Positions 18,528-63,998 of a stretch of 64,000 nt of DNA are shown one piece after another (position 1 is the first letter of the stretch; every line of letters begins with the position of its first letter). The notes beneath the pieces were generated by a model that saw only the letters and a list, made by a program, of their open reading frames with translations, made no database searches and had not been told where the DNA came from. The DNA is from a virus. Location of the stretch: IMG/VR virus record IMGVR_UViG_3300030493_000012; one strand, given 5' to 3'. A program made the position numbers and the translations under genes.

Positions 18528-18562
18528 TAATTACACGAAAAGCATAGTTGAAAAGTGTAATT
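18528..18562. promoter_or_regulatory. divergent pair of putative late-promoter motifs (GTGTAATTA on -, GTGTAATT on +)
   Basis: TAATTACAC at 18528-18536 and GTGTAATT at 18555-18562, between divergent genes 18510(-) and 18583(+). Confidence 0.7.
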
Positions 18563-18582
18563 TAAGGAAAGGAACAAGGTAT

Positions 18583-19107
18583 ATGGCCGGGTCAATTTAC
18601 AATATAGCGGAATGGTCAAGTTTGGCGACTTACGCAAAGCATTTTGTTGTTAAAAACAATAACAGCTATTATTATTCATTGCAAGACCACGTTGCAAGTG
18701 CTTCATTTTCGGCAGATTTAGGCAGCGGATTATGGGGCGGCTACATTACTGATTCTAATGGTGAATCAAAACCTTCATTTTTGTGGACTCCATCAATTAG
18801 TTCCGAAATTGCCGCCAACCCAAGAGTTAAAACCATTTCTTTTGGTGATGGATATTCACAAAGAACCAAAGATGGAATTAACAATAATTTGCTTTCTTTG
18901 CAATTAAGCTTTGATGGTCGAACCTTGATTGAGGCCAAGGCAATTTTGCACTTTTTGTACACCAGAGAAGGCGTCGAATCATTCCTTTGGACACCACCAG
19001 AGCCTTTCAATAAGCAAAAAAGATTCATTTGCAAAGAATTTCCTATGAGTACATCGTTCTTTGGGGCATATAATATTAGATGTACTTTTGAAGAAGTCGT
19101 GTCTTAA
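18583..19107 (+). CDS. lambda gpM-like minor (distal) tail protein
   Basis: F.WTP, RVKTISFGDGYSQR.KDGINN, and FL....GVESFLWTPP. Confidence 0.85.
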   Translation: MAGSIYNIAEWSSLATYAKHFVVKNNNSYYYSLQDHVASASFSADLGSGLWGGYITDSNGESKPSFLWTPSISSEIAANPRVKTISFGDGYSQRTKDGINNNLLSLQLSFDGRTLIEAKAILHFLYTREGVESFLWTPPEPFNKQKRFICKEFPMSTSFFGAYNIRCTFEEVVS

Positions 19108-19108
19108 A

Positions 19109-20116
19109 ATGGATAAATTAACCGCTCAAACAGCCAATAAAGTTTTAAGCTCGGAGATTATGTCTCTGAATCCGGCTACGCTTATTACTTTGTTTGAGAT
19201 TGACTTGTCGGAAATTGCTTTTGATATTGGTTTAGCCACAAACAATACCAATACTGTTTTTAGATTTCATAACAGTAATTTTCTCAGAGCAAAGAACTTA
19301 ATCTGGAAAGGCTTTGAATATCAAGCGGCTCCAATTATTGTTGAAGGTTATGAAATTTCAAGTCAAGGAACACCGCCAACTCCAAAATTGGCAATTTCAG
19401 TCAACGACCAAGGAATTCCCGGTTTGACGCAATTAAAACAATTGCTTAGACAAGTAGGCGATTTAACTGGAGCCAAAGTTACAAGAATTAGGACTTTTGC
19501 TAAATATCTTGACGCTCAAAATTTTATCAACAACGTTACGCCAGAACAGTTTGCGCCAAATTCTAATATTGAATTTCCAAGAGACATTTTTTATATTGAG
19601 CGCAAGTCACAAGAAAATAAAACAACCATAGAATATGAACTATCCTCTATTTTTGATTTGGAGAATGTTAAGTTGCCAGCTAGATTGGTTTTGGCTTCAA
19701 AATGCTCCTGTGTTTATCGCGGCAACGGATGTTTGTATGAATATGCATCAAGGCGCGTAAACACAACGCACGGAACACCTTCTGAGTCAAACCTGCCTTT
19801 ATTAGCGCCGCCAATCGCCAACAACAAAGATGAACTAATTAAAGATATTATTGGTGTTAATAGCCTAAAAGACAGGGGTAAATGGCAAAGAGACACTGTT
19901 TATTCAATTGGCGACAATATATTTATTGAAAAAAATGGAATTAAATACTATTTTGTAGCCAAGGTCAATAATCCTCAAAACGCGCCTCCAAATATTACAG
20001 AATGGGTGGCTGATGTTTGTTCCAAGACAGTAAAAGGATGCCGATTAAGATGGGGAAGAATTGATGACGGCGGCTTAATGTTTAATGGTTTTCCAGCAAC
20101 GAATAAGGCGGTCTAA
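19109..20116 (+). CDS. lambda gpL-like tail tip protein
   Basis: ITLFEIDL, FRFHN, WKG..Y.AAPI..EG, DLTGAKVTRIRTFAKYLD, YELSS.FD, Cys ligands C.CVYRGNGC.Y and DVCSK...GC, and F.GFP. Confidence 0.9.
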   Translation: MDKLTAQTANKVLSSEIMSLNPATLITLFEIDLSEIAFDIGLATNNTNTVFRFHNSNFLRAKNLIWKGFEYQAAPIIVEGYEISSQGTPPTPKLAISVNDQGIPGLTQLKQLLRQVGDLTGAKVTRIRTFAKYLDAQNFINNVTPEQFAPNSNIEFPRDIFYIERKSQENKTTIEYELSSIFDLENVKLPARLVLASKCSCVYRGNGCLYEYASRRVNTTHGTPSESNLPLLAPPIANNKDELIKDIIGVNSLKDRGKWQRDTVYSIGDNIFIEKNGIKYYFVAKVNNPQNAPPNITEWVADVCSKTVKGCRLRWGRIDDGGLMFNGFPATNKAV

Positions 20117-20856
20117 TGCTTACATCACCTGAAATTTTAGACAAAATAGAAGAACATGCTAGACAAGATGTTAGGCGCGAGTGTTGTGGCTTGATTTTAG
20201 AAAGCGTTGATGGCGCGGTTTTTACCATGCCTTGTAATAATGTAGCTAAAGATTCAACTCACGAATTTCAAATTAAAGATTCAGACATTATCTTTGCTGA
20301 AACTTTTGGTAAAATTAAGGCTTATTATCATTCACACCCAAAAACCTGCAAACTTTCGCTACACGACAAGATTATCAGTAATCAAAACAAGTTTCCGGCT
20401 GTAGTTTATTATTGTCCAATTAATCAGTTCGAAGTTTATTATCCAAGCAAAGACCATAAAGAATACTTATTCAGAGAATTTCAATTGGGCAAAAACGATT
20501 GTTTTAGTTTGGTTCGAGATTTCTTTTTGCAAGAGTATGGAATTGTAATTTCGGACTATCCAAGAGTTGAAAAGTGGTTCTCTAAATATCCAAATTTAAT
20601 AACCGACAATTTTACAAAAGAAGGTTTTGATAGAGCGCATATTGGTTCGGTTAAAGATTTTAGAGTCCTGCAAGAGGCCGATGTTATTCTTTTGAACACA
20701 ATAGGCAATAAATATCCTGTTCACATGGCCGTTTATCTTGGTTCTGGATTAATAATGCACCATCCAAGAGACCAATATTCTTGTATTGAAAAATACTCCA
20801 GAGTTTTTCAAAGAATGACTAAATTAGTAGTTCGACACAAAAGTTTATGTTTTTAA
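20116..20856 (+). CDS. lambda gpK-like tail assembly protein (JAB/MPN plus NlpC/P60)
   Basis: ECCGLI, YHSHP..SLHD (JAB); DCFSLVRDF...H.AVYLG.G.IMHH (NlpC/P60). Confidence 0.9.
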   Translation: MLTSPEILDKIEEHARQDVRRECCGLILESVDGAVFTMPCNNVAKDSTHEFQIKDSDIIFAETFGKIKAYYHSHPKTCKLSLHDKIISNQNKFPAVVYYCPINQFEVYYPSKDHKEYLFREFQLGKNDCFSLVRDFFLQEYGIVISDYPRVEKWFSKYPNLITDNFTKEGFDRAHIGSVKDFRVLQEADVILLNTIGNKYPVHMAVYLGSGLIMHHPRDQYSCIEKYSRVFQRMTKLVVRHKSLCF

Positions 20857-23264
20857 GTCCAGAAATTAAGAAAAATATCCAGAATCATGCTTATGAAAAG
20901 CGCGGCTCTGTAGTTTGTGGTTTGATTGTTGATACTGGTCATAACCTTTTAAGCTATGAAATTACTCTTTTTGACGCCAAATTCTTTCTTGTTTCGCCTG
21001 TTGATTTAGCAAACGCTTCAAGGTTGGGCAAAATAGTTGGAATTTATCGCTCTAATATTGACAAATTTAGTCAATTTTCTGATTTAGATATTAAGACCGC
21101 CAAAACCTTAAAATGTCCAATTATTGTCTATGACTTTTCCGATTTCAACGTTTTTGAGCCGGAAATTGAAAAAGATGGATTAGTAAAAATTACTTTGCAT
21201 GGAAAATTAGGAGAAAGCATTGGCAAAACTTGGAGACTGGCTGTTAATAGTGTTTCTGAGGCTGTTCGAGCCATCGAAATGAACAGTAAAAGAAAATTGT
21301 TCAAATTTTTGTATAACAATGATAAGTTTGGCCTGAAATACAGAGTTTTGATTAATGGGAATGACTTTTTGTATTCAGAATTACCAACAATTGACAAATT
21401 AAATACCATAACAGATTCAGAATTAGCTTGCCATATTGAAGATTTAAAGACTATAGATATTATTCCTGTAATGGAAGGCGCGGACAAAATAGGTGGAATT
21501 ATTGGCACTGTTTTGGGCGTAATTTTGATTGTGGTTGGCATTATTCTTATGGTTACGCCAGCTACCGCTCCGCTAGGACTTGGAATTATTATGGCCGGTC
21601 TTGGTCTTGTGGCGGCAGGCGTCATTAATCTTCTCTCTAAACCTCCTAACGGCGGCGATTTTCGAGAAATAGAAAACGCACAAGGCAGAACTTCTTATTT
21701 ATTTAATGGCCCTGAAAATGTAACCAAAGAAGGCGGGCCTGTTCCGCTTGGTTATGGTAGGTTGTTGGTTGGAAGCCAAGTAATTTCCGCCTCTTATATT
21801 GTCAAAAACATTAGCGCCGATATTGGCTCTGATAAGAAATACGACCCCGGCTTTTTTGATACCAGTGTCAATTATGAAATTAATGCTGTCGGCTCTAATA
21901 GATACAAAGCCTCTTATAAAGGAACATCAGCCAAACCAAGCGGATGGGTTTCAGAGCTAGTTCCTATAGAGACTTCTGACATAACATACCAGTATGTTTC
22001 GAATGTTTTCGTTTCGGATTCGTATATCTATCTTATTGTTATTATTTTATTTAAAAATGGAAATGTTTCTAGCATAACAGGTGGCGCTACCACAGAAGCA
22101 TTGACCGTAAAACACAGATACTTGGTTAGGAAATCCCTGTCGGCAACTATCACAGATAAGTTTGAGGCCGTCGCTTATTTATCAGATTGCGATATAAATG
22201 ATTTAATAACACGCGCCAGCGCATTTACACAAAGTTTTGCAACGATAGACAATCCAATTACAGCATTATCAGTATTAGAAACAACCGTCCAAACATCAAT
22301 ATTAATGGCACCGGCGAGACCATTGTTGCCAGAATCCAAGCAGTACGATATAACACAAGCAGGAAACGCTGATTCTAACTATACCAGACTTTCTGGTAAG
22401 ATTTATAAAATTTTGGCCGACAAAGAAAATAACTATTTCTACTATGTTGGAAATTTTCCTAAAACAGCCTCTTATACAGGATTAATCGCCAAAGCACAAA
22501 TTAATGGAAATCTATTTACAACAGCCTCTTTCGGAGCTAGTAATCTCTATGATTATTCAGCCTCGGCTTGTGGGATTGTAGATATTTGCAAGGCAGGAAA
22601 CGATTTGATTGTATCTGGATATTTCTACAACGGCTCTAATTTCTTTAATATTGCAGTTTTAGATGCCAATGGTAATGTCATAAGCACAACAGCGCCAACT
22701 TTTGTGGCGATTCCTGGTTTCGCATATCCATTGATTAAAAGTGTATATTTTGATAGCGCGAGCAATTATGTTTATATAGCTGGTGATTTCGTCATTGACG
22801 GAACGCCACAGTATAAAAACGCGGCCAGATTAACCTTTAATACATCAACTAGAGCGTTAGCCGTTGACACTTCTTGGATTTGTCCGTTTAATGGTGCTCT
22901 GGCCACAAACCACGATTTGGCAGTTGACACTATCAATGTTGTAACTCAGCAAATTTCGGATAAAAAACTCCTGTTTGGTGGCAGATTCGCAATTTTAGCC
23001 AAAGAAGGTCAAGAAGCAGCTTATTCTAGCTACCGAGGATTGTTAAGAACCAACGAAGATGGTAGCTATGATAATACTTTTAATGCCGGAATTGAGAAAT
23101 CTAAAGTTGGAACTGAAAATTCCATCAATTTCGTGAAAGTGACAGAAGCGGCGGGAAGTCAATACGCTGGCCAAATCTTTATCGGTGGCGACTTCACAGA
23201 ATATAATGACTCCACCAACAAAAACTTTGCAATTTTAACCAATGGAACCTATGGACGAACTTAA
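20847..23264 (+). CDS. lambda gpI-like tail assembly protein fused to a degenerate JAB domain (N) and a beta-propeller-like repeat region (C)
   Basis: LHGKLGESIG..W.L.V.SVSEAVRAI, IDIIPVMEG, a hydrophobic Gly-rich segment, SYLFNGP.N...GGPVPLGYGRLLVGSQVISA, and C-terminal KLLFGGRF/IFIGGDFT.YN repeats. Confidence 0.8.
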   Translation: MFLSPEIKKNIQNHAYEKRGSVVCGLIVDTGHNLLSYEITLFDAKFFLVSPVDLANASRLGKIVGIYRSNIDKFSQFSDLDIKTAKTLKCPIIVYDFSDFNVFEPEIEKDGLVKITLHGKLGESIGKTWRLAVNSVSEAVRAIEMNSKRKLFKFLYNNDKFGLKYRVLINGNDFLYSELPTIDKLNTITDSELACHIEDLKTIDIIPVMEGADKIGGIIGTVLGVILIVVGIILMVTPATAPLGLGIIMAGLGLVAAGVINLLSKPPNGGDFREIENAQGRTSYLFNGPENVTKEGGPVPLGYGRLLVGSQVISASYIVKNISADIGSDKKYDPGFFDTSVNYEINAVGSNRYKASYKGTSAKPSGWVSELVPIETSDITYQYVSNVFVSDSYIYLIVIILFKNGNVSSITGGATTEALTVKHRYLVRKSLSATITDKFEAVAYLSDCDINDLITRASAFTQSFATIDNPITALSVLETTVQTSILMAPARPLLPESKQYDITQAGNADSNYTRLSGKIYKILADKENNYFYYVGNFPKTASYTGLIAKAQINGNLFTTASFGASNLYDYSASACGIVDICKAGNDLIVSGYFYNGSNFFNIAVLDANGNVISTTAPTFVAIPGFAYPLIKSVYFDSASNYVYIAGDFVIDGTPQYKNAARLTFNTSTRALAVDTSWICPFNGALATNHDLAVDTINVVTQQISDKKLLFGGRFAILAKEGQEAAYSSYRGLLRTNEDGSYDNTFNAGIEKSKVGTENSINFVKVTEAAGSQYAGQIFIGGDFTEYNDSTNKNFAILTNGTYGRT

Positions 23265-26200
23265 AAGATATATTTTTCAAGGTTCTGAGGAAGTTCCAGA
23301 AGGAGCCATTAATGAAGTTGATGAGCGAGGTCAACAGTTGCCAAGCGGCGCTCTTTCTTCTACTGATATTGAGGTTTTGGATTTAATTTCAGAAGGGCCG
23401 ATTGCTGGATTAGTAAGCGGCGAATACAAATTCTCTGGAATTGCTGGCGAAGTTGGCTATAGAACAGCAACTTTTACCGCTTATTCTGATGCTCCAAATT
23501 TGGAAGGAGTTAACTTTCTGCGCTCAGTTTATTGGAATGAAGTGCCAGTCATTAATTCAGCTAATAAATTTAATTTCCAAAGAGTTGATGTTTCTTATAC
23601 TCACGGAATTGCAAATGGCTCTTATGTCAATCAGCAGCAACCAGAATTAACAGTCAGCCGAACAATTTCAGAGCGCCTTTTCGGAACAGAGCTAAATGCA
23701 TCCGGCGAATCATCTTTAAGTACCGATTATACTAAATATTATAGAATCTTAAACAAAGACTGCAAAGGCGCAATCATTAATATTAAAGTTGGCAGGCTGG
23801 CGGCGACAAATACAGATTCCGGCGAAATGGAAAGAGCGGCAATTGAATATCGTGTCTATTATAAGCCAATTTTTACCTACAATACCTCGTTTTCGACTAA
23901 TTATATTCTTGGTAAAGTAGATAAAATAGAGGGCAAAATCAACTATGGATTCGTAAAATCAACCAGAGTTGACTTTTTCGTGCCAAATGACATGCCTTTT
24001 GATTTTATTGGCTGGGAAATTAAGCTTGTTCGTGTTACACCCGATTCATTGTCAAGCATGTTGGCCAACCAAACAACGGTTGATTCTTTGACTGAAATCT
24101 ACGCTGACAAATTTTTATATCCAAACTCTGCAATAGTAAGGTCAAGATTTAATGCTCAGTTTTTCGCGCAAGTTCCGGCTAGAGCGTTTGACGCTAAATT
24201 AAGAAAAGTCCAAATTCCAAGCAATTACGAGCCAATAACCAAAACATATATTGAAGGCGAGCAAGGTTGGGATGGAACTTTTGCAGAAAGCGAACAATGG
24301 ACAGATAATCCAGCTTGGTGTTATCAAGATTTAGTCAAAAACCCTCGATACGGTCTTTCTAAATTCATTCCAAATTTAACTATTGACAAATGGAGCCTTT
24401 ATGAAGTTGCAAAGTATTGCGACACATTGGTTTATGATGGATATGGCGGCTTGGAACCAAGATTTGCTTGCAATTTAATCATCAATACCAGAGAGGACGC
24501 CTATAAAGTCTTAAATGACATGGCCTCAATATTTCGTGGCATAACTTATTACTCACAAGGCACAGTTTTTGCGGTTCAAGACACAGAAAAAGAGCCGATT
24601 GTTTTGTTTAATAATTCAAATGTCGAAAATGGCGACTTTCATTATTCTTCTAGCGCCAAAAGAGCGCGACATACAGTTGCAATTGTCAGATACAATGACA
24701 AAACCAATTTTTTCAAGCCTGCTTTGGAATATGTAGAAGATTTAGATGGTATTCGGCGCTATGGTATTAAAGAGTTAGACATGACCGCTTTTGGATGCAC
24801 TAGTAAAGGCCAAGCTATTCGGTTAGGACGTTGGGCCTTGCTAACAGAAACGCTGGAAACCGAGACTTGTTCGTTTGTGGCTGGCCTTGAGGCTAATTAC
24901 CTAAGACCGGGCGATGTATTCAAAATCTTTGACCAAAATCGCAAAAATACAAGATTTGCAGGTAGATTATATTCAACCGATATTACTGGCGATGCTGGAG
25001 CTTTGACTTTAGATTGTGCGCTGCCATCTCTGAGCACAAATACCATTTATAAAATCGAACTGATGGCTCCAAGTTACAATTATGACCCCGTAACCACAAC
25101 AGACTTAACAAGTTCTGATGTTTCTGGAGTTCGCCACTCTTTACTTCAAACTGTTTATTTTACAGGTTATTCTACAGGACTACATTCTACATTAAATTCA
25201 ACAGTCAATATTCCTTATGGTTTAGATTTAGATAGTTTTAACTTTACAAAGCCAGATTCTGTGATTTGGAGCATTTCGCCATCTGGAACTTTAACAGAAG
25301 ACCAGTCTAGTCAATTTTCTAGTGATGATTATGACTTGTTCCGCTGCATTAACATCAAAGAAAATGAAGTTCATAAATACGAAATCACGGCTTTACAATA
25401 TTCTCCACAAAAGTATATTGAAATCGAATCTGGACTAAACTTTGAACGCAGTATTTCAACTTATAAAATCCAACCTGTTGCACCACAAGACTTAATAGTT
25501 TATCCACAGGCTGGAAGCGCAAATAAAGCCAGTTTAGAGTATTCCTTTACTGTGCCTAATTATGCTGGAATTAATAGTTTTAATGTTTATGTCAAAAAAG
25601 ATAATTGGGCCGATACGACTGTTCCAAGCGACAATTATTTAGCTGCGATTTTACCTTACAATGTTACCTCTGATACCTTTATTCCGGCTGAAACAGGCAA
25701 TTATTTCTTCAAAGTTTATTCTGTAAATAACGAAGCTAATATTTTGTCAAATAGCGCAGCTACAGGTTGGGTACGAGTTTCAGATATGTTTCCAGTCAAG
25801 GACATTATTATTAATTCTTTGAAATTGGAATCTGATATTGTGCCTAATTTACAAGGAACCAGATTAACAGGTGAATATTTTACTGACAGCCCAACTTTTA
25901 CATGGCAAGCTGGCACTAATAATGATAATTCATTACCTTCCTCTTTTAAATATAGAGTTAGCATTAGGCCGACTAATAATTCTAATGTACCATCTTCAAC
26001 TATTTTGTTCAGCAAAAATAATGTAGCGCCAGAATCTTCTTTGTTGAAATATACTTTTGACTTTGACGATAATAAAAACACAATTGGCGGGCCATATAGA
26101 GAATATGATGTTGTAGTTGAGGCTATTGATACTAATGGTTTGACTTCGGCTGGTAATTCTGTCAATTTAACAACTAATGTTGCAACTGAAATCTGGAATA

Positions 26201-26853
26201 CTGCCAGTTTGAACGCTAATGGTTATGATATTCTGAGTATTTTGAACAATAAACCAAGTGGTTTTTATCTATCACCAACTGGCAATGCCGTTAAATATGC
26301 AAATTATGCTACAAGACAATGGATTGATGGTAATGGTACAATTTTCGGCGCTTTTGTTAGTGGAAATATACCTACAGACATAGTTGGTGGCTTTGGATTT
26401 TATAGCACAGGTTTGATTACGGGATTAGAAGCAGTAACAGGCTCACCTTCTAATTATCAAATTTATACAGGCGAATTTTCTTATGATTCATTGTCACAAG
26501 CGTTTCAAATACCGCCAGCTAAGAATTTAGACCTAGAATCTTCATTGCAACTGGCTAAAACAGGTTATTTAGTGGTTAGTTTGTATGACTCTTTTGACGA
26601 AGAGGTTAAAGATGATTATTTAGCCACGCCAACAGGCAAATTGTATTTTCTAAGTGGTTTATACAGAACAAATCCCGGTCGTTTTAATTCAAAAAGCTAT
26701 GTTAGCACAATTAATGCTGGCGAACTAATGACAATTCACAATGCTGGCGACCAAACAGAATATGCTGGATTTAAGGTTATTAATAATGGCACAAATTGGA
26801 TATTAAAATCTGTTGATGAGGATGGCAACGAGTATATAATCGGAACTAAATAA
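23242..26853 (+). CDS. lambda gpJ-like central tail tip / host-specificity protein
   Basis: DLISEGPI.GLV, YPNSA, KVQIPSNY, WDGTF..W.DNPAW, DKWSLY..AKYCD, EPRF.CN, GCTSKGQA.RLGRW.L.TE, RPGD, plus an FN3-like region. Confidence 0.92.
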   Translation: MEPMDELKRYIFQGSEEVPEGAINEVDERGQQLPSGALSSTDIEVLDLISEGPIAGLVSGEYKFSGIAGEVGYRTATFTAYSDAPNLEGVNFLRSVYWNEVPVINSANKFNFQRVDVSYTHGIANGSYVNQQQPELTVSRTISERLFGTELNASGESSLSTDYTKYYRILNKDCKGAIINIKVGRLAATNTDSGEMERAAIEYRVYYKPIFTYNTSFSTNYILGKVDKIEGKINYGFVKSTRVDFFVPNDMPFDFIGWEIKLVRVTPDSLSSMLANQTTVDSLTEIYADKFLYPNSAIVRSRFNAQFFAQVPARAFDAKLRKVQIPSNYEPITKTYIEGEQGWDGTFAESEQWTDNPAWCYQDLVKNPRYGLSKFIPNLTIDKWSLYEVAKYCDTLVYDGYGGLEPRFACNLIINTREDAYKVLNDMASIFRGITYYSQGTVFAVQDTEKEPIVLFNNSNVENGDFHYSSSAKRARHTVAIVRYNDKTNFFKPALEYVEDLDGIRRYGIKELDMTAFGCTSKGQAIRLGRWALLTETLETETCSFVAGLEANYLRPGDVFKIFDQNRKNTRFAGRLYSTDITGDAGALTLDCALPSLSTNTIYKIELMAPSYNYDPVTTTDLTSSDVSGVRHSLLQTVYFTGYSTGLHSTLNSTVNIPYGLDLDSFNFTKPDSVIWSISPSGTLTEDQSSQFSSDDYDLFRCINIKENEVHKYEITALQYSPQKYIEIESGLNFERSISTYKIQPVAPQDLIVYPQAGSANKASLEYSFTVPNYAGINSFNVYVKKDNWADTTVPSDNYLAAILPYNVTSDTFIPAETGNYFFKVYSVNNEANILSNSAATGWVRVSDMFPVKDIIINSLKLESDIVPNLQGTRLTGEYFTDSPTFTWQAGTNNDNSLPSSFKYRVSIRPTNNSNVPSSTILFSKNNVAPESSLLKYTFDFDDNKNTIGGPYREYDVVVEAIDTNGLTSAGNSVNLTTNVATEIWNTASLNANGYDILSILNNKPSGFYLSPTGNAVKYANYATRQWIDGNGTIFGAFVSGNIPTDIVGGFGFYSTGLITGLEAVTGSPSNYQIYTGEFSYDSLSQAFQIPPAKNLDLESSLQLAKTGYLVVSLYDSFDEEVKDDYLATPTGKLYFLSGLYRTNPGRFNSKSYVSTINAGELMTIHNAGDQTEYAGFKVINNGTNWILKSVDEDGNEYIIGTK

Positions 26854-26854
26854 T

Positions 26855-33772: not shown

Positions 33773-33781
33773 TAATTACAC
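33773..33781 (-). promoter_or_regulatory. putative late-promoter motif GTGTAATTA upstream of the tape measure gene
   Basis: TAATTACAC on the + strand, 22 nt before ATG 33750. Confidence 0.7.
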
Positions 33782-36763: not shown

Positions 36764-37531
36764 TTACACTAAAACGGGGGCGTTTTCGGAACTAATTTTC
36801 GGCGGCTCAACCGGCTCATCTTTAACTTTTAATTTAATATCCTCTTTTACCTTAGCTAAATTATCCGCTTTCCACAAAGGGCGAAGATTTTTATAATTAA
36901 AACACTCTTTAAATTCTTCTGGATTTTCGAGCCGGAAACTACAACAAGGCCGAATATGGTCTAAATGGGTCCGGCTCCCGTCTTTGATGTCTTCCCATGT
37001 CATTCCTACAGGCGCGACCGATAAAAGATGGTCTATTAATTCTTTTAATGAGCATCCAAGCATATCAAGAGATTTACATACTTTGTATGTGCTCTTTTGT
37101 TTTATCAATTTTCTAATACGGCTCCGAAGTCTTAACGCCAAAATATATCCTAAATCAGTTTTTCTTCTTTCTTGATGCCTTATACTTCTCCATTCTTTTC
37201 GCTTTTCTTTAGCCTCTGGCGTTTGTCGTCTTTGCTTTACTTTATTCTTATTGCTGTTGTACCAGTTTGTTTGTCTTTGTTTAATATGTTCTGCGTTTTT
37301 TTGATAATATTCTTTACATTTTTCTAGCCTAGACTCTTTGTGTCTTTTATAATCTTCTCTTTTTTCGTTTAGTGTCTTTTCGTGATTTTCATAATATTTA
37401 TCTTTTCTACATTGCTTACAGGTTGGACGATAACCGTCTTTACTCTTTTTTAACAAACCAAACTCCGAGAGTAATTTTACCTGTTTACATTCTCCGCATT
37501 TTTTCTGTGTATTATTTATTAGAGGTTCCAT
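36764..37531 (-). CDS. free-standing HNH endonuclease with N-terminal Cys4 zinc finger
   Basis: CGECKQVK..EF...KDGYRPTCKQC, a basic helical linker, and HLDHIRPC..F....ECFNYKNLRPLW..DN. Confidence 0.85.
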   Translation of the reverse strand: MEPLINNTQKKCGECKQVKLLSEFGLLKKSKDGYRPTCKQCRKDKYYENHEKTLNEKREDYKRHKESRLEKCKEYYQKNAEHIKQRQTNWYNSNKNKVKQRRQTPEAKEKRKEWRSIRHQERRKTDLGYILALRLRSRIRKLIKQKSTYKVCKSLDMLGCSLKELIDHLLSVAPVGMTWEDIKDGSRTHLDHIRPCCSFRLENPEEFKECFNYKNLRPLWKADNLAKVKEDIKLKVKDEPVEPPKISSENAPVLV

Positions 37532-37540
37532 AAAGTTAAT

Positions 37541-38730: not shown

Positions 38731-38803
38731 AAATTATTCCTTAATTATTATTGTTACTTAAAATTACACCAAAAACACTCTTTTGATAATTAAAATATCT
38801 ATT

Positions 38804-44024: not shown

Positions 44025-44075
44025 AGTGTAAAATAAAGTTTCTCCTTTAATTACACCAAATCCTGCTTCTAAAAA

Positions 44076-44872: not shown

Positions 44873-44930
44873 ATCTTTACAAGAGATTACACTTAATGTT
44901 ACGAAAATATCTTGACTTTCGGAAGTATTT

Positions 44931-45929: not shown

Positions 45930-45948
45930 ATACTATACATCCTTTGCT

Positions 45949-45977: not shown

Positions 45978-45992
45978 TAAAATATTCGGTTT
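45961..45992 (-). terminator. rho-independent terminator after the major capsid gene
   Basis: AAACCGAATAT-N7-ATATTCGGTTT, followed by a T-run on the - strand. Confidence 0.8.
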
Positions 45993-46007
45993 GTGAATTG
46001 ATTTTGA

Positions 46008-47678: not shown

Positions 47679-47741
47679 ATATTTTTTCCTTATTATTTAT
47701 CGTTATAATTAGTTACACTGATTTTTTATTTTTTCCAATAA

Positions 47742-49274: not shown

Positions 49275-49275
49275 C

Positions 49276-49692: not shown

Positions 49693-50562
49693 TTACACCT
49701 TACTTAATAAAAACTCTAGCTTTTCTTCAATTGAAGCAATTTTCATGTCTATGATTGTGAAGGCGTGAGTTATTAAAATTTCCTGATTTTTGGCGTTTGG
49801 TAGAATGATTGGCAACTGAATATTTGGTGTAAAATCTGAATAAATTTCGTAACCAACAGCAGTTTTCGATTCTCCTGTATAAGTTCCATTAATAATTAGC
49901 TCCCACTTATTAACAGACAAATCTCCTTGTTTTAGCCCGCTTGGTATAACTGAATCAACTAAAATCAAACTCTCTTTTTCTGAATTAACAACATTTCGGA
50001 CTGTCACTTCTATAAATTTCTTTTGTGGTATGGCGTTATATTCAATATCCAAAACAGCACCAGAACCAGAGCCTCCTTCCATCATTCCAACTTGAGGATA
50101 ATTCAAATAAATACCCTTTTCGACTAATCCTATTCTTTGAATTTCACCATTTTCGGAAACTTGGTTAACTTTAATCTGAGTTACTTTTGTTTGGTTATCA
50201 AACTTACTTAGTGCCAAAACGCCACCCGCCACAGTTAAAACATCACCAACTTTATAATTTGAACCAGCATTTTTTATACTGTTAACTGTTAATAATTCGT
50301 ATTCGTTGTAAGTTAAAATAGCTTTGTCGCCTCTGAATATCTCAGCCCCACAGTTGCCTTTTATTTTGATTTGAAATTCATTTAAAACCTCAAATTTCTG
50401 GCTATAAGACAAAGGATTTGTTTTAATTACCTGATAAAAACAGGAATCGGAGCTAAATTTGATAAAACTACCTTTTTTAACAGATTGCCAAGAAGCAGAA
50501 GAGTCGCTTATTACTCTGCTTGAATCTTTACTTATAGAACAAGTGCCTATCGAATTTTTCAT
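49693..50562 (-). CDS. putative virion structural protein
   Basis: Beta-rich, with YKVGDVLTVAGG and GGSGSGAVLDI motifs; downstream of the fibre gene. Confidence 0.5.
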   Translation of the reverse strand: MKNSIGTCSISKDSSRVISDSSASWQSVKKGSFIKFSSDSCFYQVIKTNPLSYSQKFEVLNEFQIKIKGNCGAEIFRGDKAILTYNEYELLTVNSIKNAGSNYKVGDVLTVAGGVLALSKFDNQTKVTQIKVNQVSENGEIQRIGLVEKGIYLNYPQVGMMEGGSGSGAVLDIEYNAIPQKKFIEVTVRNVVNSEKESLILVDSVIPSGLKQGDLSVNKWELIINGTYTGESKTAVGYEIYSDFTPNIQLPIILPNAKNQEILITHAFTIIDMKIASIEEKLEFLLSKV

Positions 50563-53649: not shown

Positions 53650-53682
53650 ATTATGCCTTATTCCTTGTGCTTAATTACACCG

Positions 53683-57134: not shown

Positions 57135-57139
57135 GCAAG

Positions 57140-57200
57140 TATTTACACTTAATTTTCACTTTTGAAAATTGAATTTTCATTTTCTGACTTTTGGTGTAAT
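57140..57200. promoter_or_regulatory. divergent late-motif pair (GTGTAAATA on -, GTGTAATG on +) flanking AT-rich inverted repeats
   Basis: TATTTACAC at 57140-57148, 5 nt from the portal ATG; GTGTAAT at 57194-57200; AATTTTCA-cttt-TGAAAATT at 57151-57170. Confidence 0.55.
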
Positions 57201-57240
57201 GTTTAGTGGATAGATAAATAAACAATCATAACTAAAACTT

Positions 57241-57465
57241 ATGCCGTTGCCCTCTCCAAAAAAATCACAAAATAAAAAAAGTTTTCTCTCTTCGTGTATG
57301 GCTAATCCAACTATGAATCGCGAATTTTCTGACAATAAAAGGCGATACGCGGTATGTAACAGCCTCTGGGAGAAGCACTTAAAGAAAAACAGTGCCGAAG
57401 AATTAGATTTCGAAGAAGTAATGAAAGAAGAAGAGAAGTGTCCTGTCTGGATTATTGACAACTAA
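57241..57465 (+). CDS. small head-associated-type protein (MP.P.P...F.S.CM...EF.D..RYAVC..W family)
   Basis: This motif is often seen in small phage proteins and protease N-termini. It is the only + strand gene in the packaging block. Confidence 0.6.
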   Translation: MPLPSPKKSQNKKSFLSSCMANPTMNREFSDNKRRYAVCNSLWEKHLKKNSAEELDFEEVMKEEEKCPVWIIDN

Positions 57466-58364: not shown

Positions 58365-60266
58365 TTAGATTAAGGTTGGCGCAAACATTTCGGTCTTTTT
58401 AGCTTCTAGTTTAGTGAAAAACATATCAAAATATATCTTAGCCGCCCAATTAGCCATCAATAAACAAGTATAATTATCGCGCCTAGCTCTATTTACTGAT
58501 TTATCGCGTCTTAATTCTTGAGGCAAATCATATTGCAAAGTGCCTTGTGAAGTGGCTTTTACCTCAATAAGACCCAATTGAGCCTTGGTTTCGTCTATCC
58601 ATTCGTCTTGTTCATAAATCATTTCTGCCGTGGCTGAATTGTCGTCAATTTTTTCACCATTCTTATCTGTGTATTTAAAAGGTAATTTGACTTCAATATA
58701 ACGCTCAAACGCCTGCTTGTTAGCCTGACATTTTGAGCCAAACCATACTTTTTCAGCAGAAATTTGGTTATGGAGGCTTTCGTTCATGTGTCTAATTGAC
58801 ATAGAATGGAACTTTTGAGCATAAATGAAAGTTTTAGAGCTTTGATTATACTGATTTTTGGCTTTCTTAATTTCATCAATATAAGCGCGAGGCTCTTCTT
58901 CATCTAAATTAGCGTCAATAAAACCTAGCTTAATGTTTTTGTCTTTGGCAATAACAGATTCATTATAACCAGAAATAAACTCCGTACCAGAAGCATCAAT
59001 AGCACAGAATATGATATTAAACTGTGTTAGGAGGAAAGTAAAATAATCATAATGGTCTTTTAATTCACCACCCGCTCGACCATAAGTATGGACTAAGGTT
59101 ATTTTACGCTCATCAAAATTAACTAAATATACGCCCATCGCAAAAAAGTCCGATGATTTACTTGCTGAATAAGAAGGGTCAATTGTTAGAATATAGCTGG
59201 AATTTTTGTCACCAATAATTTGTGTAGTGGGAAAATTACCAACCTTAATCGTGCAATCTTGGAGTTTTTTGACATTGAAATAACTATCGCTGGCGTCTGA
59301 GAACAAAGCCTTGTATTCGCGCTTAAAATATTCAGAATTTTCGCCAATTGAAGTTTTAGCTGCTTCAATTTGAGTATAGTCCATGAATGAACCCTTTGGA
59401 ATCGCTTCATAGGACATCCTGATTGCAAAATAGCTAGGACGGTCTTTCTCGTCCTTTACTGCTGGAGGATTTTCAATGTTTTCAATGATTGATTGATATA
59501 ACTCATAAAGATATTCAAATTTATAAGAAGCAGAAGACAGAATGTGGTATTTGTTTTTTGGGAATGATATTCTATCGGCCTCAGTAATAACTCCAGCGGC
59601 AATAAGTTCATCTTCTCTGGCTCTAATCATTGATTCTTGACTGAAATCTTGTTTAGCTGTTAAGAATGGGCGAATTACTAATTCTTGAATATCTTTTGTA
59701 ATCAATAAACCTTCGTCCACGCATACGCACGATGCGCGTGTGCCGCGTAAGCCATCACCCCCGCTACCAGATGTTAAAGGCAAAGCAAACACTTCCGAAT
59801 TAGCCGGGCTTGGAATTTTGAGCCTAAAAATATCATTACCTTTTCTCAACGAGTCTGGAAAGCATTGTTTTAATAAAAAGTTCTCTTTATTGTTAATCCA
59901 CTTATCGCACTCTTCCAAAATAGCTCTTGAACGACGAAAGTTTGCAGAAATGATACAAAGCTTACTGTTAAAGTGAAAAATTGGATACAGTAAAGCAAAC
60001 ACGCTCAGCAAAAAAGATTTGCTCGAACCCCGCCCTGCTACAATAATGCCATTGTCTCTATATAACATCGCCTTCAAAATTAACTCTTGAATAGGCTCAA
60101 GTTTAATCTTAGTAAACAAATAAACCATGAAGCCTAAATTATATCTTAAGAATTTTGCCAAAGTAATTCTTGCCGTTACGTCATTCAAGGTTCCCGTTAA
60201 TTGCTTAACCTCTTCATTGAAATCTTTAACGCTTACAGTCTTTTGTGCTCCGGTGTACCAAGCCAT
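58365..60266 (-). CDS. terL: terminase large subunit
   Basis: Walker A GRGSSKS, motif LRGTRA..V.VDE, LSSAS, REY.A.F, nuclease TIDPS...SDF, and RRDNY. Confidence 0.9.
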   Translation of the reverse strand: MAWYTGAQKTVSVKDFNEEVKQLTGTLNDVTARITLAKFLRYNLGFMVYLFTKIKLEPIQELILKAMLYRDNGIIVAGRGSSKSFLLSVFALLYPIFHFNSKLCIISANFRRSRAILEECDKWINNKENFLLKQCFPDSLRKGNDIFRLKIPSPANSEVFALPLTSGSGGDGLRGTRASCVCVDEGLLITKDIQELVIRPFLTAKQDFSQESMIRAREDELIAAGVITEADRISFPKNKYHILSSASYKFEYLYELYQSIIENIENPPAVKDEKDRPSYFAIRMSYEAIPKGSFMDYTQIEAAKTSIGENSEYFKREYKALFSDASDSYFNVKKLQDCTIKVGNFPTTQIIGDKNSSYILTIDPSYSASKSSDFFAMGVYLVNFDERKITLVHTYGRAGGELKDHYDYFTFLLTQFNIIFCAIDASGTEFISGYNESVIAKDKNIKLGFIDANLDEEEPRAYIDEIKKAKNQYNQSSKTFIYAQKFHSMSIRHMNESLHNQISAEKVWFGSKCQANKQAFERYIEVKLPFKYTDKNGEKIDDNSATAEMIYEQDEWIDETKAQLGLIEVKATSQGTLQYDLPQELRRDKSVNRARRDNYTCLLMANWAAKIYFDMFFTKLEAKKTEMFAPTLI

Positions 60267-61453: not shown

Positions 61454-62122
61454 CTAAATGTCGAAATCTTTATTATAAACCAACTCTCTGGCTTGACGGC
61501 TAATAGCTTTTCTTATCATTTTCAAATACTTATGGCCGCGAGCCATTTCAACTTCTGTCTGATAACCAAGCAATTTGACGACTTTTTCATCATCCAAATT
61601 ATCAATAAAACACCATTTGTAGATTTTGAACTCATAAGGGCGCAAAACCAGTTTCATTTTTTTATTCAATTCACGAATTGCAGGCTCAACATCAGTAATT
61701 TCACCTGATTTTTCATAAACCTCCTTCTGATGGTTCTCAATAGGCAAAGGCATCTTAATATCGTGTGCGAATTTTTTGTTTTTGCACCATTTCAAGAATA
61801 AAGGACAACTTTCGCATTGAGTGCCATAAAGTTCACATAAATCGCCACCTTGGTTAAATTCACAGGCATTACAAGGCTTAGAATAGACCGAGAAATTATT
61901 ACGAATTAAATTACTTATCTGGTTTGAAATGATAGCATTGAGCCAGTTAACTAAAGGCTTCTTTTGGTCATATAAATGCCATTTTTTCCAAATATGAAGG
62001 CGTAAAATTTGCGCTACATCATCATAATCCATTGATGTTAAAGAAGTTAGAGTCCACTTTCCGCGCCTTTTCTTGATTTCGGTATCAATTGTGGCGATTG
62101 AGTCTTCAAAAGTGATAGGCAT
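61454..62122 (-). CDS. phage-encoded ECF-like sigma factor with Cys-rich linker
   Basis: Region 2: DYDDVAQILRLHIWKKWHLYDQKKPLVNWLNAIISNQISNLIR. Region 4: LRPYEFKIYKWCFIDNLDDEKVVKLLG. Six Cys lie between them. Confidence 0.75.
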   Translation of the reverse strand: MPITFEDSIATIDTEIKKRRGKWTLTSLTSMDYDDVAQILRLHIWKKWHLYDQKKPLVNWLNAIISNQISNLIRNNFSVYSKPCNACEFNQGGDLCELYGTQCESCPLFLKWCKNKKFAHDIKMPLPIENHQKEVYEKSGEITDVEPAIRELNKKMKLVLRPYEFKIYKWCFIDNLDDEKVVKLLGYQTEVEMARGHKYLKMIRKAISRQARELVYNKDFDI

Positions 62123-62141: not shown

Positions 62142-62171
62142 ATTTTAACCTACCAAAGTTCCGAAAATCAA
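62142..62171 (-). promoter_or_regulatory. sigma70-type promoter TTGATT-N18-TAAAAT upstream of the sigma gene
   Basis: On the + strand, AATCAA at 62166-62171 and ATTTTA at 62142-62147. Confidence 0.5.
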
Positions 62172-62173
62172 AG

Positions 62174-62932
62174 TTATTTTGCTGGAAACATCGGCTCAAC
62201 TCTGCTGTCATCAAGTGTTTTCAGAATAAAACCTAGAATATCAGACCTTTTAATGTCCTCGTCCCCTAACGAAAAACAATAAATTCCATTATCTCTTGAT
62301 TGCTGATTATCAAAAAGGTCATAAATTCTTTTAAATGCTCCTTGTTTTTTAGCGGGCAAATCTGTTTGTGAAAAGTCACCAACAAAGACCATTTTAGACT
62401 TCATACCATATCTTGTCAGTAAAAGTTTATATTCACCAAAAGTATAATTATTGGCTTCTTCCATTAAAATGTATTTAACAGCCCAGCTTAAACCGCGAGC
62501 AAAATTAACAGGAACAAAAGTTACTCTATTGTCTTGCTGGAGTTTTTGATTATCTTCGGCCTTTAATAATTCTTGACATTTATCAGTGAATACTTGATAA
62601 TAGGGTAATAGCTTGCTAAGAAGGTCGCCTTTCAAGTAACCCAAACTGGCCGAATCAGAGACTTCTAATGCGGTTCTAACGAAAATAATATCAGAGACTT
62701 TCTTTGTTGATAGTAATTTTAATCCACAATAAGTTGCCAAAATTGACTTGCCCGTTCCCGCATTCCCGTTTACAAATACAATTTTTGATTTGCTATCTAA
62801 GATGGTATCAATAATTTCTTTCTGTTTAGTTGTCCAAGGCAATTCTTTTATGAAAATTGAGCCTTTGAATTTATCTCTTTGTGGAATCGTCGGTGAATTG
62901 TCTTTTAGATAAGAAACTTCTTGTTTTTGCAT
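62174..62932 (-). CDS. phoH: PhoH-family ATPase
   Basis: GNAGTGKS, LGYLKGDL..K..PY, FARGLS, EEANN, LTR.G..SK.V.VGD..Q.DL. Start placed at MQKQ (62932), downstream of GTGTAATTA at 62941-62949. Confidence 0.9.
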   Translation of the reverse strand: MQKQEVSYLKDNSPTIPQRDKFKGSIFIKELPWTTKQKEIIDTILDSKSKIVFVNGNAGTGKSILATYCGLKLLSTKKVSDIIFVRTALEVSDSASLGYLKGDLLSKLLPYYQVFTDKCQELLKAEDNQKLQQDNRVTFVPVNFARGLSWAVKYILMEEANNYTFGEYKLLLTRYGMKSKMVFVGDFSQTDLPAKKQGAFKRIYDLFDNQQSRDNGIYCFSLGDEDIKRSDILGFILKTLDDSRVEPMFPAK

Positions 62933-62939
62933 ATTTAAG

Positions 62940-63998
62940 TTAATTACACTCAAGAGGTTGCGGCTGGTGAACCTTTTTCCATCTATGGCTCGACTCTAAG
63001 TGCTTTATTAGATGCAATAGTTTATGTTTCATTATATAACCGTAAGTAGCCATGTCGTTTTTGATAAAATCTTTCAGTGTTGTGTATTTTCCAACAACCG
63101 CCGATATGTCGTCTATGGTGCGCGGTCTTCTTGGCTTATCGCGCATGTGCTCAATAGCGGTATCAATCAATTTCATTTTCCATAATCTATGATAAACCTT
63201 TTTCTCTTTATCTTTAAAATCTCTAAATGATGAATAGCTTTTAGCAACATTAAGTAAATCTTCTTTATTATAAATTTTAGAAAAAACATCGCCAACCTTA
63301 TAATTTAATATATCACTTTCGGTAATACTTTTGTTGCAAATTTTGTTTATCTTGTCTAAATTACCGACCAACTGTTGTTTTACATCTTCTTCGTATTTTC
63401 GATTGTTCTCTCTAATGTAAATAATGTTAATTTTCTTTTCTGCAAACTTTTCCAGCTTAAGAGCATCATTTTTATTATCAAGATGCCAACCTTTGCCGTT
63501 GTACTCAAAAGCTAAATTAAAATCTGGATAATAAACATCAACCTCATAAGGAGGAATGATTTTTCGACTATTGTATATAGCTTTGACACCTAAAATTCCA
63601 TCCATTATATCTTGAAGTATCATTTGCGGAATACTAAAACTACAAACCGCCATGTGACCGCAAATCGCCTCCAAAAAGCCGGAGTTTCTAGCTACTTGGT
63701 ACGCGGAACCATCTTTTGTTTGAAATTCTGCTCTCGACTTGTATTTCAAAGCAATTTCTTTTAATAAATCAAACGTTAAATCTCTTCCTAAAATTGTTTT
63801 ATTTCTTTTTACTAAAAGCTCTTTTCTAGCTTCCGTCTTTTTTCTTTCAAACTGCTCAGACCTCTGTAGTTTTAACCTCCTTGCCTTTGCTACAATAAGA
63901 GACTTCTTACATCCAAGTTCTGTAGAAATTAGTTGTGTTGAAGTATTTGGGTATAATTCTATTAATCTATTTGTTTTTTCGTCCGTCCATCCAAATGG
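62940..63998 (-). CDS. Vsr-like / PD-(D/E)XK putative homing endonuclease with HTH and three helical repeats, 5'-truncated
   Basis: The frame is open to the window edge (PFGWTDEKTNRLIELYPNTS...). PYEVDVYYPDFNLAFEYNGKGWH; repeats KYKSRAEF..KD..AY, SYSSFRDF.DK...VY and KYTTLKDFIKND..TY. Confidence 0.7.
   Translation of the reverse strand, partial: PFGWTDEKTNRLIELYPNTSTQLISTELGCKKSLIVAKARRLKLQRSEQFERKKTEARKELLVKRNKTILGRDLTFDLLKEIALKYKSRAEFQTKDGSAYQVARNSGFLEAICGHMAVCSFSIPQMILQDIMDGILGVKAIYNSRKIIPPYEVDVYYPDFNLAFEYNGKGWHLDNKNDALKLEKFAEKKINIIYIRENNRKYEEDVKQQLVGNLDKINKICNKSITESDILNYKVGDVFSKIYNKEDLLNVAKSYSSFRDFKDKEKKVYHRLWKMKLIDTAIEHMRDKPRRPRTIDDISAVVGKYTTLKDFIKNDMATYGYIMKHKLLHLIKHLESSHRWKKVHQPQPLECN

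What the first reader, a model, noticed from the sequence alone, without database searches (positions are those of the whole stretch)
18528..62949. Phage sigma factor plus a recurring GTGTAATTA motif before most late transcription units
Seen in sequence: exact GTGTAATTA on the - strand at 18528, 33773, 44048, 49690, 53672 and 62941. Near-variants lie at 18555(+), 36762, 38762, 44885, 47710, 57140 and 57194(+). Each is 5-40 nt upstream of a start codon (tube paralogues, M-L-K-I-J, tape measure, chaperone block, major tail, head-tail block, decoration/capsid, protease, fibre, portal, PhoH). No shared -35 is visible. Early genes use TTGACA/TATAAT instead. An ECF-like sigma gene (61454-62122) has its own host-type promoter. 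Established: T4 gp55 and SPO1 sigmas drive such cascades, and T4 late promoters are -10-only. Inference: host sigma70 transcribes the phage sigma, which then reads a new -10-like element (R)GTGTAATTA. My scan was by eye and may have missed sites.
Basis: partly seen in the sequence, partly recalled or inferred. Interest (0 to 1): 0.8.

Follow-up and report, generated by a model that had tools for sequence, protein, structure and literature searches.

The report
One-box GTGTAA phage late promoter
An uncultured 182-kb phage marks the heads of its virion-gene transcription units with a near-invariant GTGTAA(T) box. It is most likely a one-piece promoter read by a phage-made sigma factor, which is a new version of a strategy already known from phages phiEco32 and T4.

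Summary
GTGTAATTA occurs 6 times, all on the minus strand, against 0.75 expected. The real unit is GTGTAA(T). Of 27 copies in the window, 13 lie 8-41 nt before a same-strand start codon (P = 2e-15). Two back-to-back pairs sit at the window's two divergent junctions.

In 87 related viral contigs GTGTAA is the most enriched hexamer before genes (234 seen, 5.8 expected). Every one-base variant falls to background. The box is avoided inside genes on both strands. No -35 element accompanies it. This fits a DNA-level, single-element promoter.

The neighbouring 222-aa protein is a real two-domain sigma (sigma2 plus sigma4 folds) with a conserved four-cysteine linker.

That this sigma reads the box is plausible but not shown. 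Relatives carry one or two further sigma genes, and 118 kb of this genome could not be examined. The "host-type promoter" of the sigma gene is weak here (9 of 12) but strong in several relatives, and the gene also lies downstream of a box.

Closest known: phiEco32 gp36 and its AATGTA promoters. This scan has already reported the same box and sigma on at least eight other genomes. I found no paper describing it. No RNA 5' end has been mapped.

The parts
18531..18536 (-). GTGTAA box (exact 9-mer 18528-18536), 20 nt before ATG 18510; heads the three-gene minus unit 14725-18510
   Evidence: half of a back-to-back pair in the 72-nt divergent gap
18555..18560 (+). GTGTAA box (GTGTAATTT), 22 nt before ATG 18583; heads the plus-strand tail-tip unit 18583-27316 (M/L/K-I/J-like)
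33776..33781 (-). GTGTAA box (exact 9-mer), 25 nt before the tape-measure gene (27313-33750)
36764..36769 (-). GTGTAA box (AGTGTAATC); its TAA is the stop codon of the endonuclease VII-like gene 36764-37531; 33 nt before ATG 36730
38764..38769 (-). GTGTAA box (GTGTAATTT), 33 nt before ATG 38730 (383-aa gene)
44051..44056 (-). GTGTAA box (exact 9-mer), 26 nt before ATG 44024
44887..44892 (-). GTGTAA box (AGTGTAATC), 14 nt before ATG 44872; lies just downstream of the endonuclease gene 44931-45929
47713..47718 (-). GTGTAA box (GTGTAACTA), 34 nt before ATG 47678; this unit continues into the Mu GpT-like major capsid gene 46008-47093
49693..49698 (-). GTGTAA box (exact 9-mer); its TAA is the stop codon of gene 49693-50562; 30 nt before ATG 49662
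53675..53680 (-). GTGTAA box (exact 9-mer), 25 nt before ATG 53649 (1027-aa gene)
57143..57148 (-). GTGTAA box (GTGTAAATA), 8 nt before the portal-like gene's ATG 57134; leaderless-type spacing
57194..57199 (+). GTGTAA box (GTGTAATGT), 41 nt before the plus-strand 74-aa ORF 57241-57465; second divergent pair
62944..62949 (-). GTGTAA box (exact 9-mer 62941-62949), 11 nt before the probable PhoH start ATG 62932; the sigma gene follows PhoH
61454..62122 (-). Phage sigma factor, 222 aa: sigma2 fold (about residues 1-80), Cys-rich linker (invariant C84, C87, C96, C106), sigma4 fold (about residues 145-220)
   Evidence: Pfam Sigma70_r2 26.3 bits against a cut-off of 24; alignment A1; AF2 model, pLDDT 78; domain-level matches to sigma2 and sigma4 structures, Z about 8, rmsd 1.9-3.0 A
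62142..62171 (-). Weak sigma70-type match TTGATT-18-TAAAAT in the 51-nt gap before the sigma gene
   Evidence: 9 of 12, a score common by chance in this A+T-rich DNA

Best explanation
GTGTAA(T) is a single-element promoter in the -10 region that drives the morphogenesis genes of this phage. RNA polymerase carrying a phage-encoded sigma factor recognises the box without any -35 element. Transcription would start roughly 7-10 nt downstream of the box.

In this phage most such messages then carry a short leader with a Shine-Dalgarno sequence. The portal and PhoH messages would be leaderless or nearly so, as most are in relatives. The sigma gene is first expressed from a host-type promoter, which is weak here and strong in several relatives. 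It may then also be transcribed from the box in front of PhoH.

Shown: the motif, its placement, its conservation, its avoidance inside genes, and the sigma fold.
Inferred: promoter function, the start-site position, and which protein reads the box.

My odds:
- the box is a promoter, about 0.85;
For: - 13 of 27 GTGTAA copies lie 3-45 nt upstream of same-strand starts (P = 2e-15).
- Both divergent junctions of the window (18511-18582 and 57135-57240) are places where a promoter is needed for each unit. Each holds exactly two opposed boxes.
- An unbiased hexamer screen of the upstream gaps in 87 related loci, leaving the window out, ranks GTGTAA first (234 seen, 5.8 expected).
- 57% of 505 copies lie within 60 nt upstream of a start, where 3.6% of positions lie.
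- Every single-base variant drops from an upstream/background ratio of 1.13 to 0.01-0.12.
- Inside genes GTGTAA is the rarest of 90 same-composition hexamers on the sense strand and the second rarest on the antisense strand. It is also below the order-3 Markov expectation on both. That is expected for a DNA signal, not for an RNA signal.
- The spacing to ATG peaks at 8-9 nt in relatives, which is leaderless -10 geometry.
- There is no -35 element. The only positional signal upstream is an inverted copy of the box.
- G at positions 1 and 3 is obligatory. In the TGTAAT register the -11 base is G, which a primary sigma does not accept (established knowledge).
- The sigma has sigma2 and sigma4 folds.
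- None of 58 distinct sigma upstream regions in relatives has a box within 90 nt. Several sigma operons are headed by 10-12/12 sigma70-type promoters placed 1-5 nt from the ATG.
- Precedent: phiEco32 gp36 reads AATGTA centred at -11.5, with T-12 and G-11 (PMC12276001).
Against: - No transcript 5' end, binding assay or expression data exist.
- Relatives encode other sigma-like genes. A full sigma70-like type (273-301 aa) occurs in 2 of the 5 longest contigs. An ECF-like type of about 200 aa occurs in the 4 most complete of those 5. In some relatives a second ~202-aa sigma-like gene lies about 4.4 kb from the Cys-rich sigma.
- In about half of the informative relatives, and probably here, the Cys-rich sigma gene sits downstream of a box. 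That requires priming from another promoter.
- The candidate host promoter in this window is only a 9/12 match.
- The sigma has an intact sigma4 fold although no -35 element is conserved.
- The plus-strand tail-tip unit also has an 11/12 sigma70-type match (18504-18531) that overlaps the opposite box.
Confidence: 0.55

Rival explanations
1. The box is a promoter, but another phage-encoded sigma reads it. Candidates are the ~200-aa ECF-like type seen in relatives, or a sigma encoded in the unread 118 kb. The Cys-rich sigma would then be one of the box-driven genes with a different role.
For: - The four most complete of five long related contigs carry the ECF-like sigma as well as the Cys-rich one.
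- Some relatives have a second ~202-aa sigma-like gene 4.4 kb from the Cys-rich one.
- In 28 of 55 informative loci the first signal upstream of the Cys-rich sigma operon is a box.
- PhoH, directly upstream of the sigma gene here, is box-led.
Against: - No such gene is present in this window (tblastn).
- A typical ECF sigma uses a conserved -35 element, and none accompanies the box.
- The box precedes the virion genes, the last temporal class. That leaves no obvious regulon for a later sigma.
- Many Cys-rich sigma operons in relatives have strong host-type promoters, as expected for the first link of a cascade.
Confidence: 0.2
2. The host primary sigma (or the phage's full sigma70-like copy) reads the box as an unusual extended -10 promoter that needs no -35. 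Phage proteins would retarget RNA polymerase late in infection, as in Thermus phages P23-45 and phiYS40.
For: - In one register the box reads GTG + TAAnnn, with T-12 and A-11 and a TG just upstream.
- The leaderless spacing mirrors this phage's early promoters.
- Thermus phage middle and late promoters are -10-only and leaderless (own knowledge; also cited in earlier notes).
Against: - The TG abuts the hexamer, whereas an extended -10 has one base between them.
- The -7 position of that register is not conserved (A 38%, T 44%).
- G1 and G3 are as strictly required as T and A, which the primary sigma does not need.
- In the TGTAAT register -11 is G.
- Early promoters of the same phage are ordinary TTGACA/TATAAT.
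Confidence: 0.1
3. The box is not a promoter. It would be an RNA-level signal (a processing site or translational operator) or the binding site of a non-sigma DNA-binding regulator.
For: - It lies in the short gaps of what could be long polycistronic late operons.
- It lies close to start codons.
- No 5' ends are mapped.
Against: - Avoidance inside genes is as strong on the antisense strand as on the sense strand.
- The distance to ATG varies from 8 to 41 nt in this window, with or without a Shine-Dalgarno sequence.
- Boxes occur at both divergent junctions, one per direction.
- The element is asymmetric, single and only 6-7 bp. That is unlike dimeric operator sites.
Confidence: 0.07

Closest known systems
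Escherichia phage phiEco32 (and Salmonella phage 7-11) sigma gp36 with its middle/late promoters (AATGTA centred at -11.5; PMC12276001, PMC4331800)
   Same: - A phage-encoded, highly diverged two-domain sigma.
- The only conserved promoter element is a short box in the -10 region that shares the core TGTA.
- Early genes use host-type promoters.
- In 7-11 the sigma gene is served by both host-type and phage-type promoters.
   Different: - No detectable sequence homology.
- A Cys4 linker that the gp36 structure paper does not describe.
- The box is GTGTAA, not AATGTA.
- 13 boxes in this 64-kb window, against the 10 predicted sites listed for phage 7-11 (PMC4331800).
- No gp79-like partner was identified.
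- The host is unknown and the phage is a 182-kb long-tailed one.
T4 late transcription: gp55 sigma, gp33 co-activator, gp45 clamp, promoter TATAAATA (own knowledge)
   Same: - A -10-only late promoter in front of virion genes, read by a phage sigma.
- By earlier notes on this genome, homing endonuclease genes also appear to be box-driven, as I-TevI is late-promoter-driven in T4.
   Different: - gp55 lacks a sigma4 domain and depends on gp33 and the sliding clamp.
- This sigma has a sigma4 fold.
- The box sequence is unrelated.
Thermus phages P23-45 / phiYS40 middle and late promoters (own knowledge; cited in earlier notes)
   Same: -10-only promoters without a -35 element, placed so that many messages are leaderless.
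   Different: - Those are read by host sigmaA after modification by phage proteins gp39 and gp76, and no phage sigma is involved.
- They have a TG-type extended -10 with an ordinary -10 hexamer.
ECF (group 4) sigma factors such as SigL, SigH, SigE and SigW
   Same: - The best structural matches.
- The sigma2-linker-sigma4 architecture and a similar size.
   Different: - ECF promoters are bipartite with a conserved -35 element, and none is seen here.
- The Cys-rich linker of about 65 residues is not an ECF feature.
- Pfam detects only region 2.

Membership tests
sigma-70 family | sigma2 domain (regions 2.1-2.4) | tested here: met
   Pfam PF04542 at 26.3 bits against a cut-off of 24. Residues 1-78 align to sigma28 sigma2 (Z 8.2, rmsd 2.5 A, 77 residues) and to the SigE N-domain (Z 7.8, 73 residues).
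sigma-70 family | sigma4 helix-turn-helix domain | tested here: met
   No Pfam hit. Residues 144-222 align to SigW sigma4 (Z 8.3, rmsd 1.9 A, 63 residues), SigD sigma4 (Z 8.2, 62 of 62) and SigE region 4 bound to -35 DNA (Z 8.1, 69 of 69). These Z values are middling for helical domains.
sigma-70 family | binds core RNA polymerase and directs promoter-specific initiation | not testable with these tools
   Needs biochemistry.
ECF (group 4) sigma | bipartite promoter with a conserved -35 element | tested here: not met
   If the box is its promoter, no position from -45 to -7 exceeds 0.22 bit. The only positional upstream signal is an inverted box.
ECF (group 4) sigma | two-domain architecture without regions 1.1 and 3 | tested here: met
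   222 aa with sigma2 and sigma4 folds joined by a linker. The linker carries an atypical Cys4 cluster.
phiEco32 gp36-like phage sigma | sequence homology to gp36 | tested here: not met
   tblastn of the sigma against 50,697 phage records gave no match at 1e-3. A profile search of PDB sequences gave no sigma hit. Foldseek ranks chain 9m7y_F of the gp79-dependent phiEco32 promoter open complex only 33rd, at E 0.25; that this chain is gp36 is my inference from the entry title.
phiEco32 gp36-like phage sigma | single conserved promoter element centred near -11 | tested here: inconclusive
   The single element is confirmed. Its position relative to the start site is only inferred from the 8-9 nt spacing to ATG in relatives.
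T4 gp55-type late sigma | sigma2-only protein that needs a co-activator and the sliding clamp | tested here: not met
   A sigma4 fold is present. Clamp dependence is not testable.

The most novel reading that the evidence does not exclude
The Cys4-linker sigma defines a new, widespread subgroup of the sigma-70 family. At least 592 IMG/VR stretches encode it, and it also occurs in marine and freshwater assemblies. By itself it would confer initiation at a strict 6-bp box, GTGTAA, with no -35 contact. The zinc module would take the place of region 3.2. That would give a compact orthogonal sigma/promoter pair and a regulatory marker for a large uncultured phage clade.
Probability: 0.45. Interest if true: 0.65.

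Novelty: new variant of a known kind. Interest (0 to 1): 0.55.

Why it matters
If confirmed, it gives the late-gene switch of a large and abundant clade of uncultured aquatic phages (about 100-200 kb genomes). Temporal classes could then be read straight from sequence. It would add a sigma subgroup with a metal-binding linker and an unusually stringent one-box promoter to the known ways of retargeting bacterial RNA polymerase. Avoidance of the box on both strands inside genes also shows how strongly such a short signal shapes genome composition. It is not a new principle: phage sigma cascades with -10-only promoters are textbook (T4, phiEco32).

Tried and rejected
- Nearest cultured relatives. 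Megablast of 18 kb against phage records found nothing. The terminase gives only about 25% identity to Bacillus phages. The sigma has no match.
- The rest of the genome. No whole genome is held. The metagenome scan did not return the window's own contig. So 118 kb, where a second sigma could lie, stayed unread.
Long contigs that carry the closest sigma homologues could not be fetched.
- Presence or absence profile to decide between the Cys-rich and the ECF-like sigma. The 30 further contigs are all 55% complete or less. Contig G040 (70% complete) has the ECF-like sigma and 7 GTGTAA-N8/9-ATG sites but no Cys-rich sigma. It also lacks portal, terminase and PhoH homologues, so the block that would hold the sigma is simply missing. 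This is uninformative.
- A search for a -35 element by position-specific 4- and 5-mers found only the inverted box and signals from closely related loci.
- The 9-mer with one mismatch is no better than chance. The 9-mer is an over-extension of the true core.
- Literature. GTGTAA with "phage" and "late promoter" returned no paper describing this element. The hit in PMC4331800 is a chance substring in one 7-11 middle promoter.
- PHROGs and Pfam gave no names for most genes between the terminase and the tape measure. Capsid and portal rest on Atlas look-alikes only.
Full report
**Observation**

The exact 9-mer GTGTAATTA occurs six times, all on the minus strand, at the coordinates given. 0.75 are expected, and no shuffle of 100 reaches six. 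All seven listed variants are present. Allowing one mismatch anywhere in the 9-mer gives 32 hits against 22 expected, which is not informative.

The conserved unit is shorter: GTGTAA, usually followed by T. There are 27 GTGTAA copies in the window. Thirteen of them lie in the 2.1% of strand positions that are 3-45 nt upstream of a same-strand start codon (binomial P = 2e-15). About 97% of the window is coding.

Two gene calls needed correction.
- The plus-strand box at 57194 precedes a plausible 74-aa plus-strand ORF (57241-57465). The low-complexity minus-strand TTG ORF that a longest-ORF rule picks there is probably not a gene.
- PhoH most likely starts at ATG 62932, 11 nt after its box.

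**Setting**

The window is part of an uncultured phage of about 182 kb (earlier notes). I could not reach the rest of the genome. There is no cultured relative at the DNA level.

Genes I could name:
- tape measure, 27313-33750;
- lambda-like tail-tip genes on the plus strand, 18583-27316;
- a weak large terminase match, 58365-60266;
- PhoH and an ERCC4-domain protein;
- a Mu GpT-like major capsid protein, 46008-47093, and a portal-like protein, 55098-57134, by Atlas look-alikes only.

So 14.7-63 kb is the morphogenesis module. Positions 1-14.7 kb hold replication genes on the plus strand. They have no box on the sense strand. Sigma70-type matches there are above chance (102 against 73 +/- 9), including a 12/12 match at 10086-10114 and a leaderless-type TTGACT-17-TAGAAT placed 6 nt from ATG 14006.

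**Placement of the boxes**

Sixteen co-directional gaps of 10 nt or more lie in the minus-strand late block, from 33.7 kb to the sigma gene. Ten of them carry a box, and an eleventh box sits at the gene boundary before PhoH.

Both divergent junctions of the window each contain exactly two opposed boxes, one facing each unit:
- 18511-18582, boxes 18 nt apart;
- 57135-57240, boxes 45 nt apart.

These are places where each unit must have its own promoter.

Several gaps without a box hold other signals:
- a terminator-like hairpin before the endonuclease VII-like gene (37532-37578);
- a hairpin plus an 11/12 TTGATA-17-TATAAT before the second endonuclease gene (45930-46007);
- a weak 9/12 sigma70-type match before the sigma gene.

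**Conservation**

The sigma family is abundant in metagenomes. 227 homologues have E <= 0.001, many on contigs of 160-208 kb. At least 592 IMG/VR stretches encode a relative.

I screened hexamers in the upstream gaps of 87 related loci (1.09 Mb, window excluded) without any prior motif. GTGTAA ranks first, with 234 seen against 5.8 expected.

Of 505 copies in the window plus loci, 57% lie within 60 nt upstream of a same-strand start. Only 3.6% of positions lie there.

Every single-base variant falls from an upstream/background ratio of 1.13 to 0.006-0.12. The mildest loss is GTGTAT. So all six positions, including both G's, are close to obligatory.

Position 7 is T in 64% of sites. Nothing from -45 to -7 exceeds 0.22 bit. 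The only position-specific upstream signal is an inverted copy of the box roughly 13-18 nt away, which reflects recurrent back-to-back divergent pairs.

In relatives the distance from the box to ATG peaks at 8-9 nt, with shoulders at 11-13 and 17-19 nt. In five long related contigs GTGTAA-N8/9-ATG occurs 44 times, against 4 for the reversed control.

**DNA signal or RNA signal**

Inside genes GTGTAA is the rarest of the 90 hexamers of identical composition on the sense strand (69 against a median of 280). It is the second rarest on the antisense strand (78 against 214). It is also below the order-3 Markov expectation on both strands (115 and 137). A 162-kb relative has only 23 copies in all, where base composition predicts about 111.

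Selection against the word on the untranscribed orientation fits a signal read on DNA. It does not fit an RNA processing or translation signal.

In this window the spacing to ATG ranges from 8 to 41 nt. Eight of the 13 spacers contain AAGG/AGGA 6-17 nt before the ATG, and these always lie at least 8 nt after the box. A start site about 7-10 nt after the box would therefore give leaders of roughly 10-35 nt, eight of them carrying a Shine-Dalgarno sequence. It would give near-leaderless messages for portal (8 nt) and PhoH (11 nt). This phage thus differs from most relatives, where the leaderless spacing dominates.

**The sigma**

The 222-aa product of 61454-62122 passes the Pfam Sigma70_r2 cut-off. 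In a 28-sequence alignment it shows three parts:
- an N-terminal block with invariant W48, Y51, W60, Q68, N71, R74 and N75;
- a linker with invariant C84, C87, C96 and C106;
- a C-terminal helix-turn-helix-like block.

The AlphaFold model (mean pLDDT 78) has two well-predicted helical domains and a poorly predicted stretch at 119-140. All leading Foldseek hits are sigma factors.

Domain by domain:
- residues 1-78 superpose on sigma2 domains (Z about 8, rmsd 2.5-2.7 A);
- residues 144-222 superpose on sigma4 domains, including SigE region 4 bound to -35 DNA (Z about 8, rmsd 1.9-3.0 A).

It is therefore an ECF-like two-domain sigma with an unusual, probably metal-binding linker. It has no detectable sequence relationship to phiEco32 gp36 or to any solved sigma.

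**Who reads the box**

This is the weak link.

- None of 58 distinct sigma upstream regions in relatives has a box within 90 nt.
- Where the sigma operon starts at a strand switch, it is often headed by a near-consensus sigma70-type promoter that ends 1-5 nt before the ATG. Three loci have 12/12 matches and several others 10-11/12.

Against a simple reading:
- In 28 of 55 informative loci the first signal upstream of the sigma operon is a box.
- In this window the sigma follows box-led PhoH after a 51-nt gap whose best sigma70-type match is only 9/12. Priming followed by positive feedback would reconcile these, as proposed for phage 7-11 (PMC4331800).

More seriously, relatives carry further sigma genes:
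- a full sigma70-like type of 273-301 aa in two of the five longest contigs;
- an ECF-like type of about 200 aa in the four most complete of them;
- in some, a ~202-aa sigma-like gene 4.4 kb from the Cys-rich one.

None of these is in the window, but two thirds of the genome is unread. A presence/absence test failed because the available contigs are incomplete.

The host primary sigma is an unlikely reader, for these reasons (sigma70 requirements from established knowledge):
- G1 and G3 are obligatory.
- In the TGTAAT register -11 is G.
- In the TAAnnn register -7 is not conserved, and the TG abuts the hexamer.

**Comparison with known systems**

The closest analogue is phiEco32. Its diverged two-domain sigma gp36 reads middle and late promoters whose only consensus is AATGTA centred at -11.5. 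T-12 is the last base pair and G-11 the first unpaired base (PMC12276001). The related phage 7-11 was analysed purely from sequence in the same way (PMC4331800). The shared TGTA core is suggestive, but the proteins are not detectably homologous.

T4 gp55 differs because it lacks sigma4 and needs the sliding clamp. Thermus phages use the host sigma.

A literature search for the box returned nothing relevant. This scan itself has reported the same box and sigma on at least eight other genomes, with the same reading. Those notes are leads, not evidence, but I re-derived their main points independently here.

**Verdict**

The promoter reading is well supported by sequence statistics and comparative data. 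The assignment to this sigma is the best single guess but is unproven. This is a new variant of a known kind.

Noticed in passing
window 36764-37531 and 44931-45929 (minus strand): Two endonuclease-like genes are inserted in the late module: PHROG endonuclease VII/HNH-like, and PHROG endonuclease phrog_4645. A terminator-like hairpin precedes each. The second also has an 11/12 TTGATA-17-TATAAT. Each is followed by the same box variant, AGTGTAATCTC, and the two downstream stretches are alike over about 20 nt. It looks as if mobile cassettes re-supply a late promoter for the gene they displaced.
   Followed up: partly
window 57177-57465: The minus-strand 94-aa TTG ORF is low-complexity and probably spurious. 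A plus-strand 74-aa ORF (57241-57465) with its own box is the likelier gene. It makes a small antisense island between the ERCC4-domain gene and the portal gene.
   Followed up: partly
window 61454-62122, residues 82-145 of the sigma: The linker between sigma2 and sigma4 carries four invariant cysteines (C84, C87, C96, C106) across 28 homologues. It may be a zinc module at the place of region 3.2. I know of no sigma with this feature.
   Followed up: partly
related contigs G001-G005 (loci L088-L095): Relatives of this phage encode up to three sigma-like genes: the Cys-rich type, a full sigma70-like type with classic region 4.2, and an ECF-like type of about 200 aa. This hints at a multi-step sigma cascade.
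   Followed up: partly
window 18504-18531 (plus strand): An 11/12 sigma70-type match (TTGCCA-16-TATAAT) overlaps the reverse complement of the 18531 box and points toward the tail-tip unit. It may be chance, because the complement of GTGTAATTATAAG contains TATAAT.
   Followed up: no
window 36764-36766 and 49693-49695: The TAA inside the box doubles as the stop codon of the upstream gene at two sites. This shows how tightly the signal is packed between genes.
   Followed up: yes
window 62940-63749 (minus strand): A 269-aa ORF just upstream of PhoH matches homing/HNH endonuclease PHROGs (phrog_3339, phrog_559). It is another selfish-element candidate next to the sigma block.
   Followed up: no
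locus L014 about 9560-9604 and L010 about 6770-6812: In two relatives the sigma operon is headed by ATGTAATAT, 6 nt from the ATG. This is a one-base variant of the box that also reads as a TAATAT -10 hexamer. It may be a promoter usable by both the host sigma and the phage sigma.
   Followed up: no
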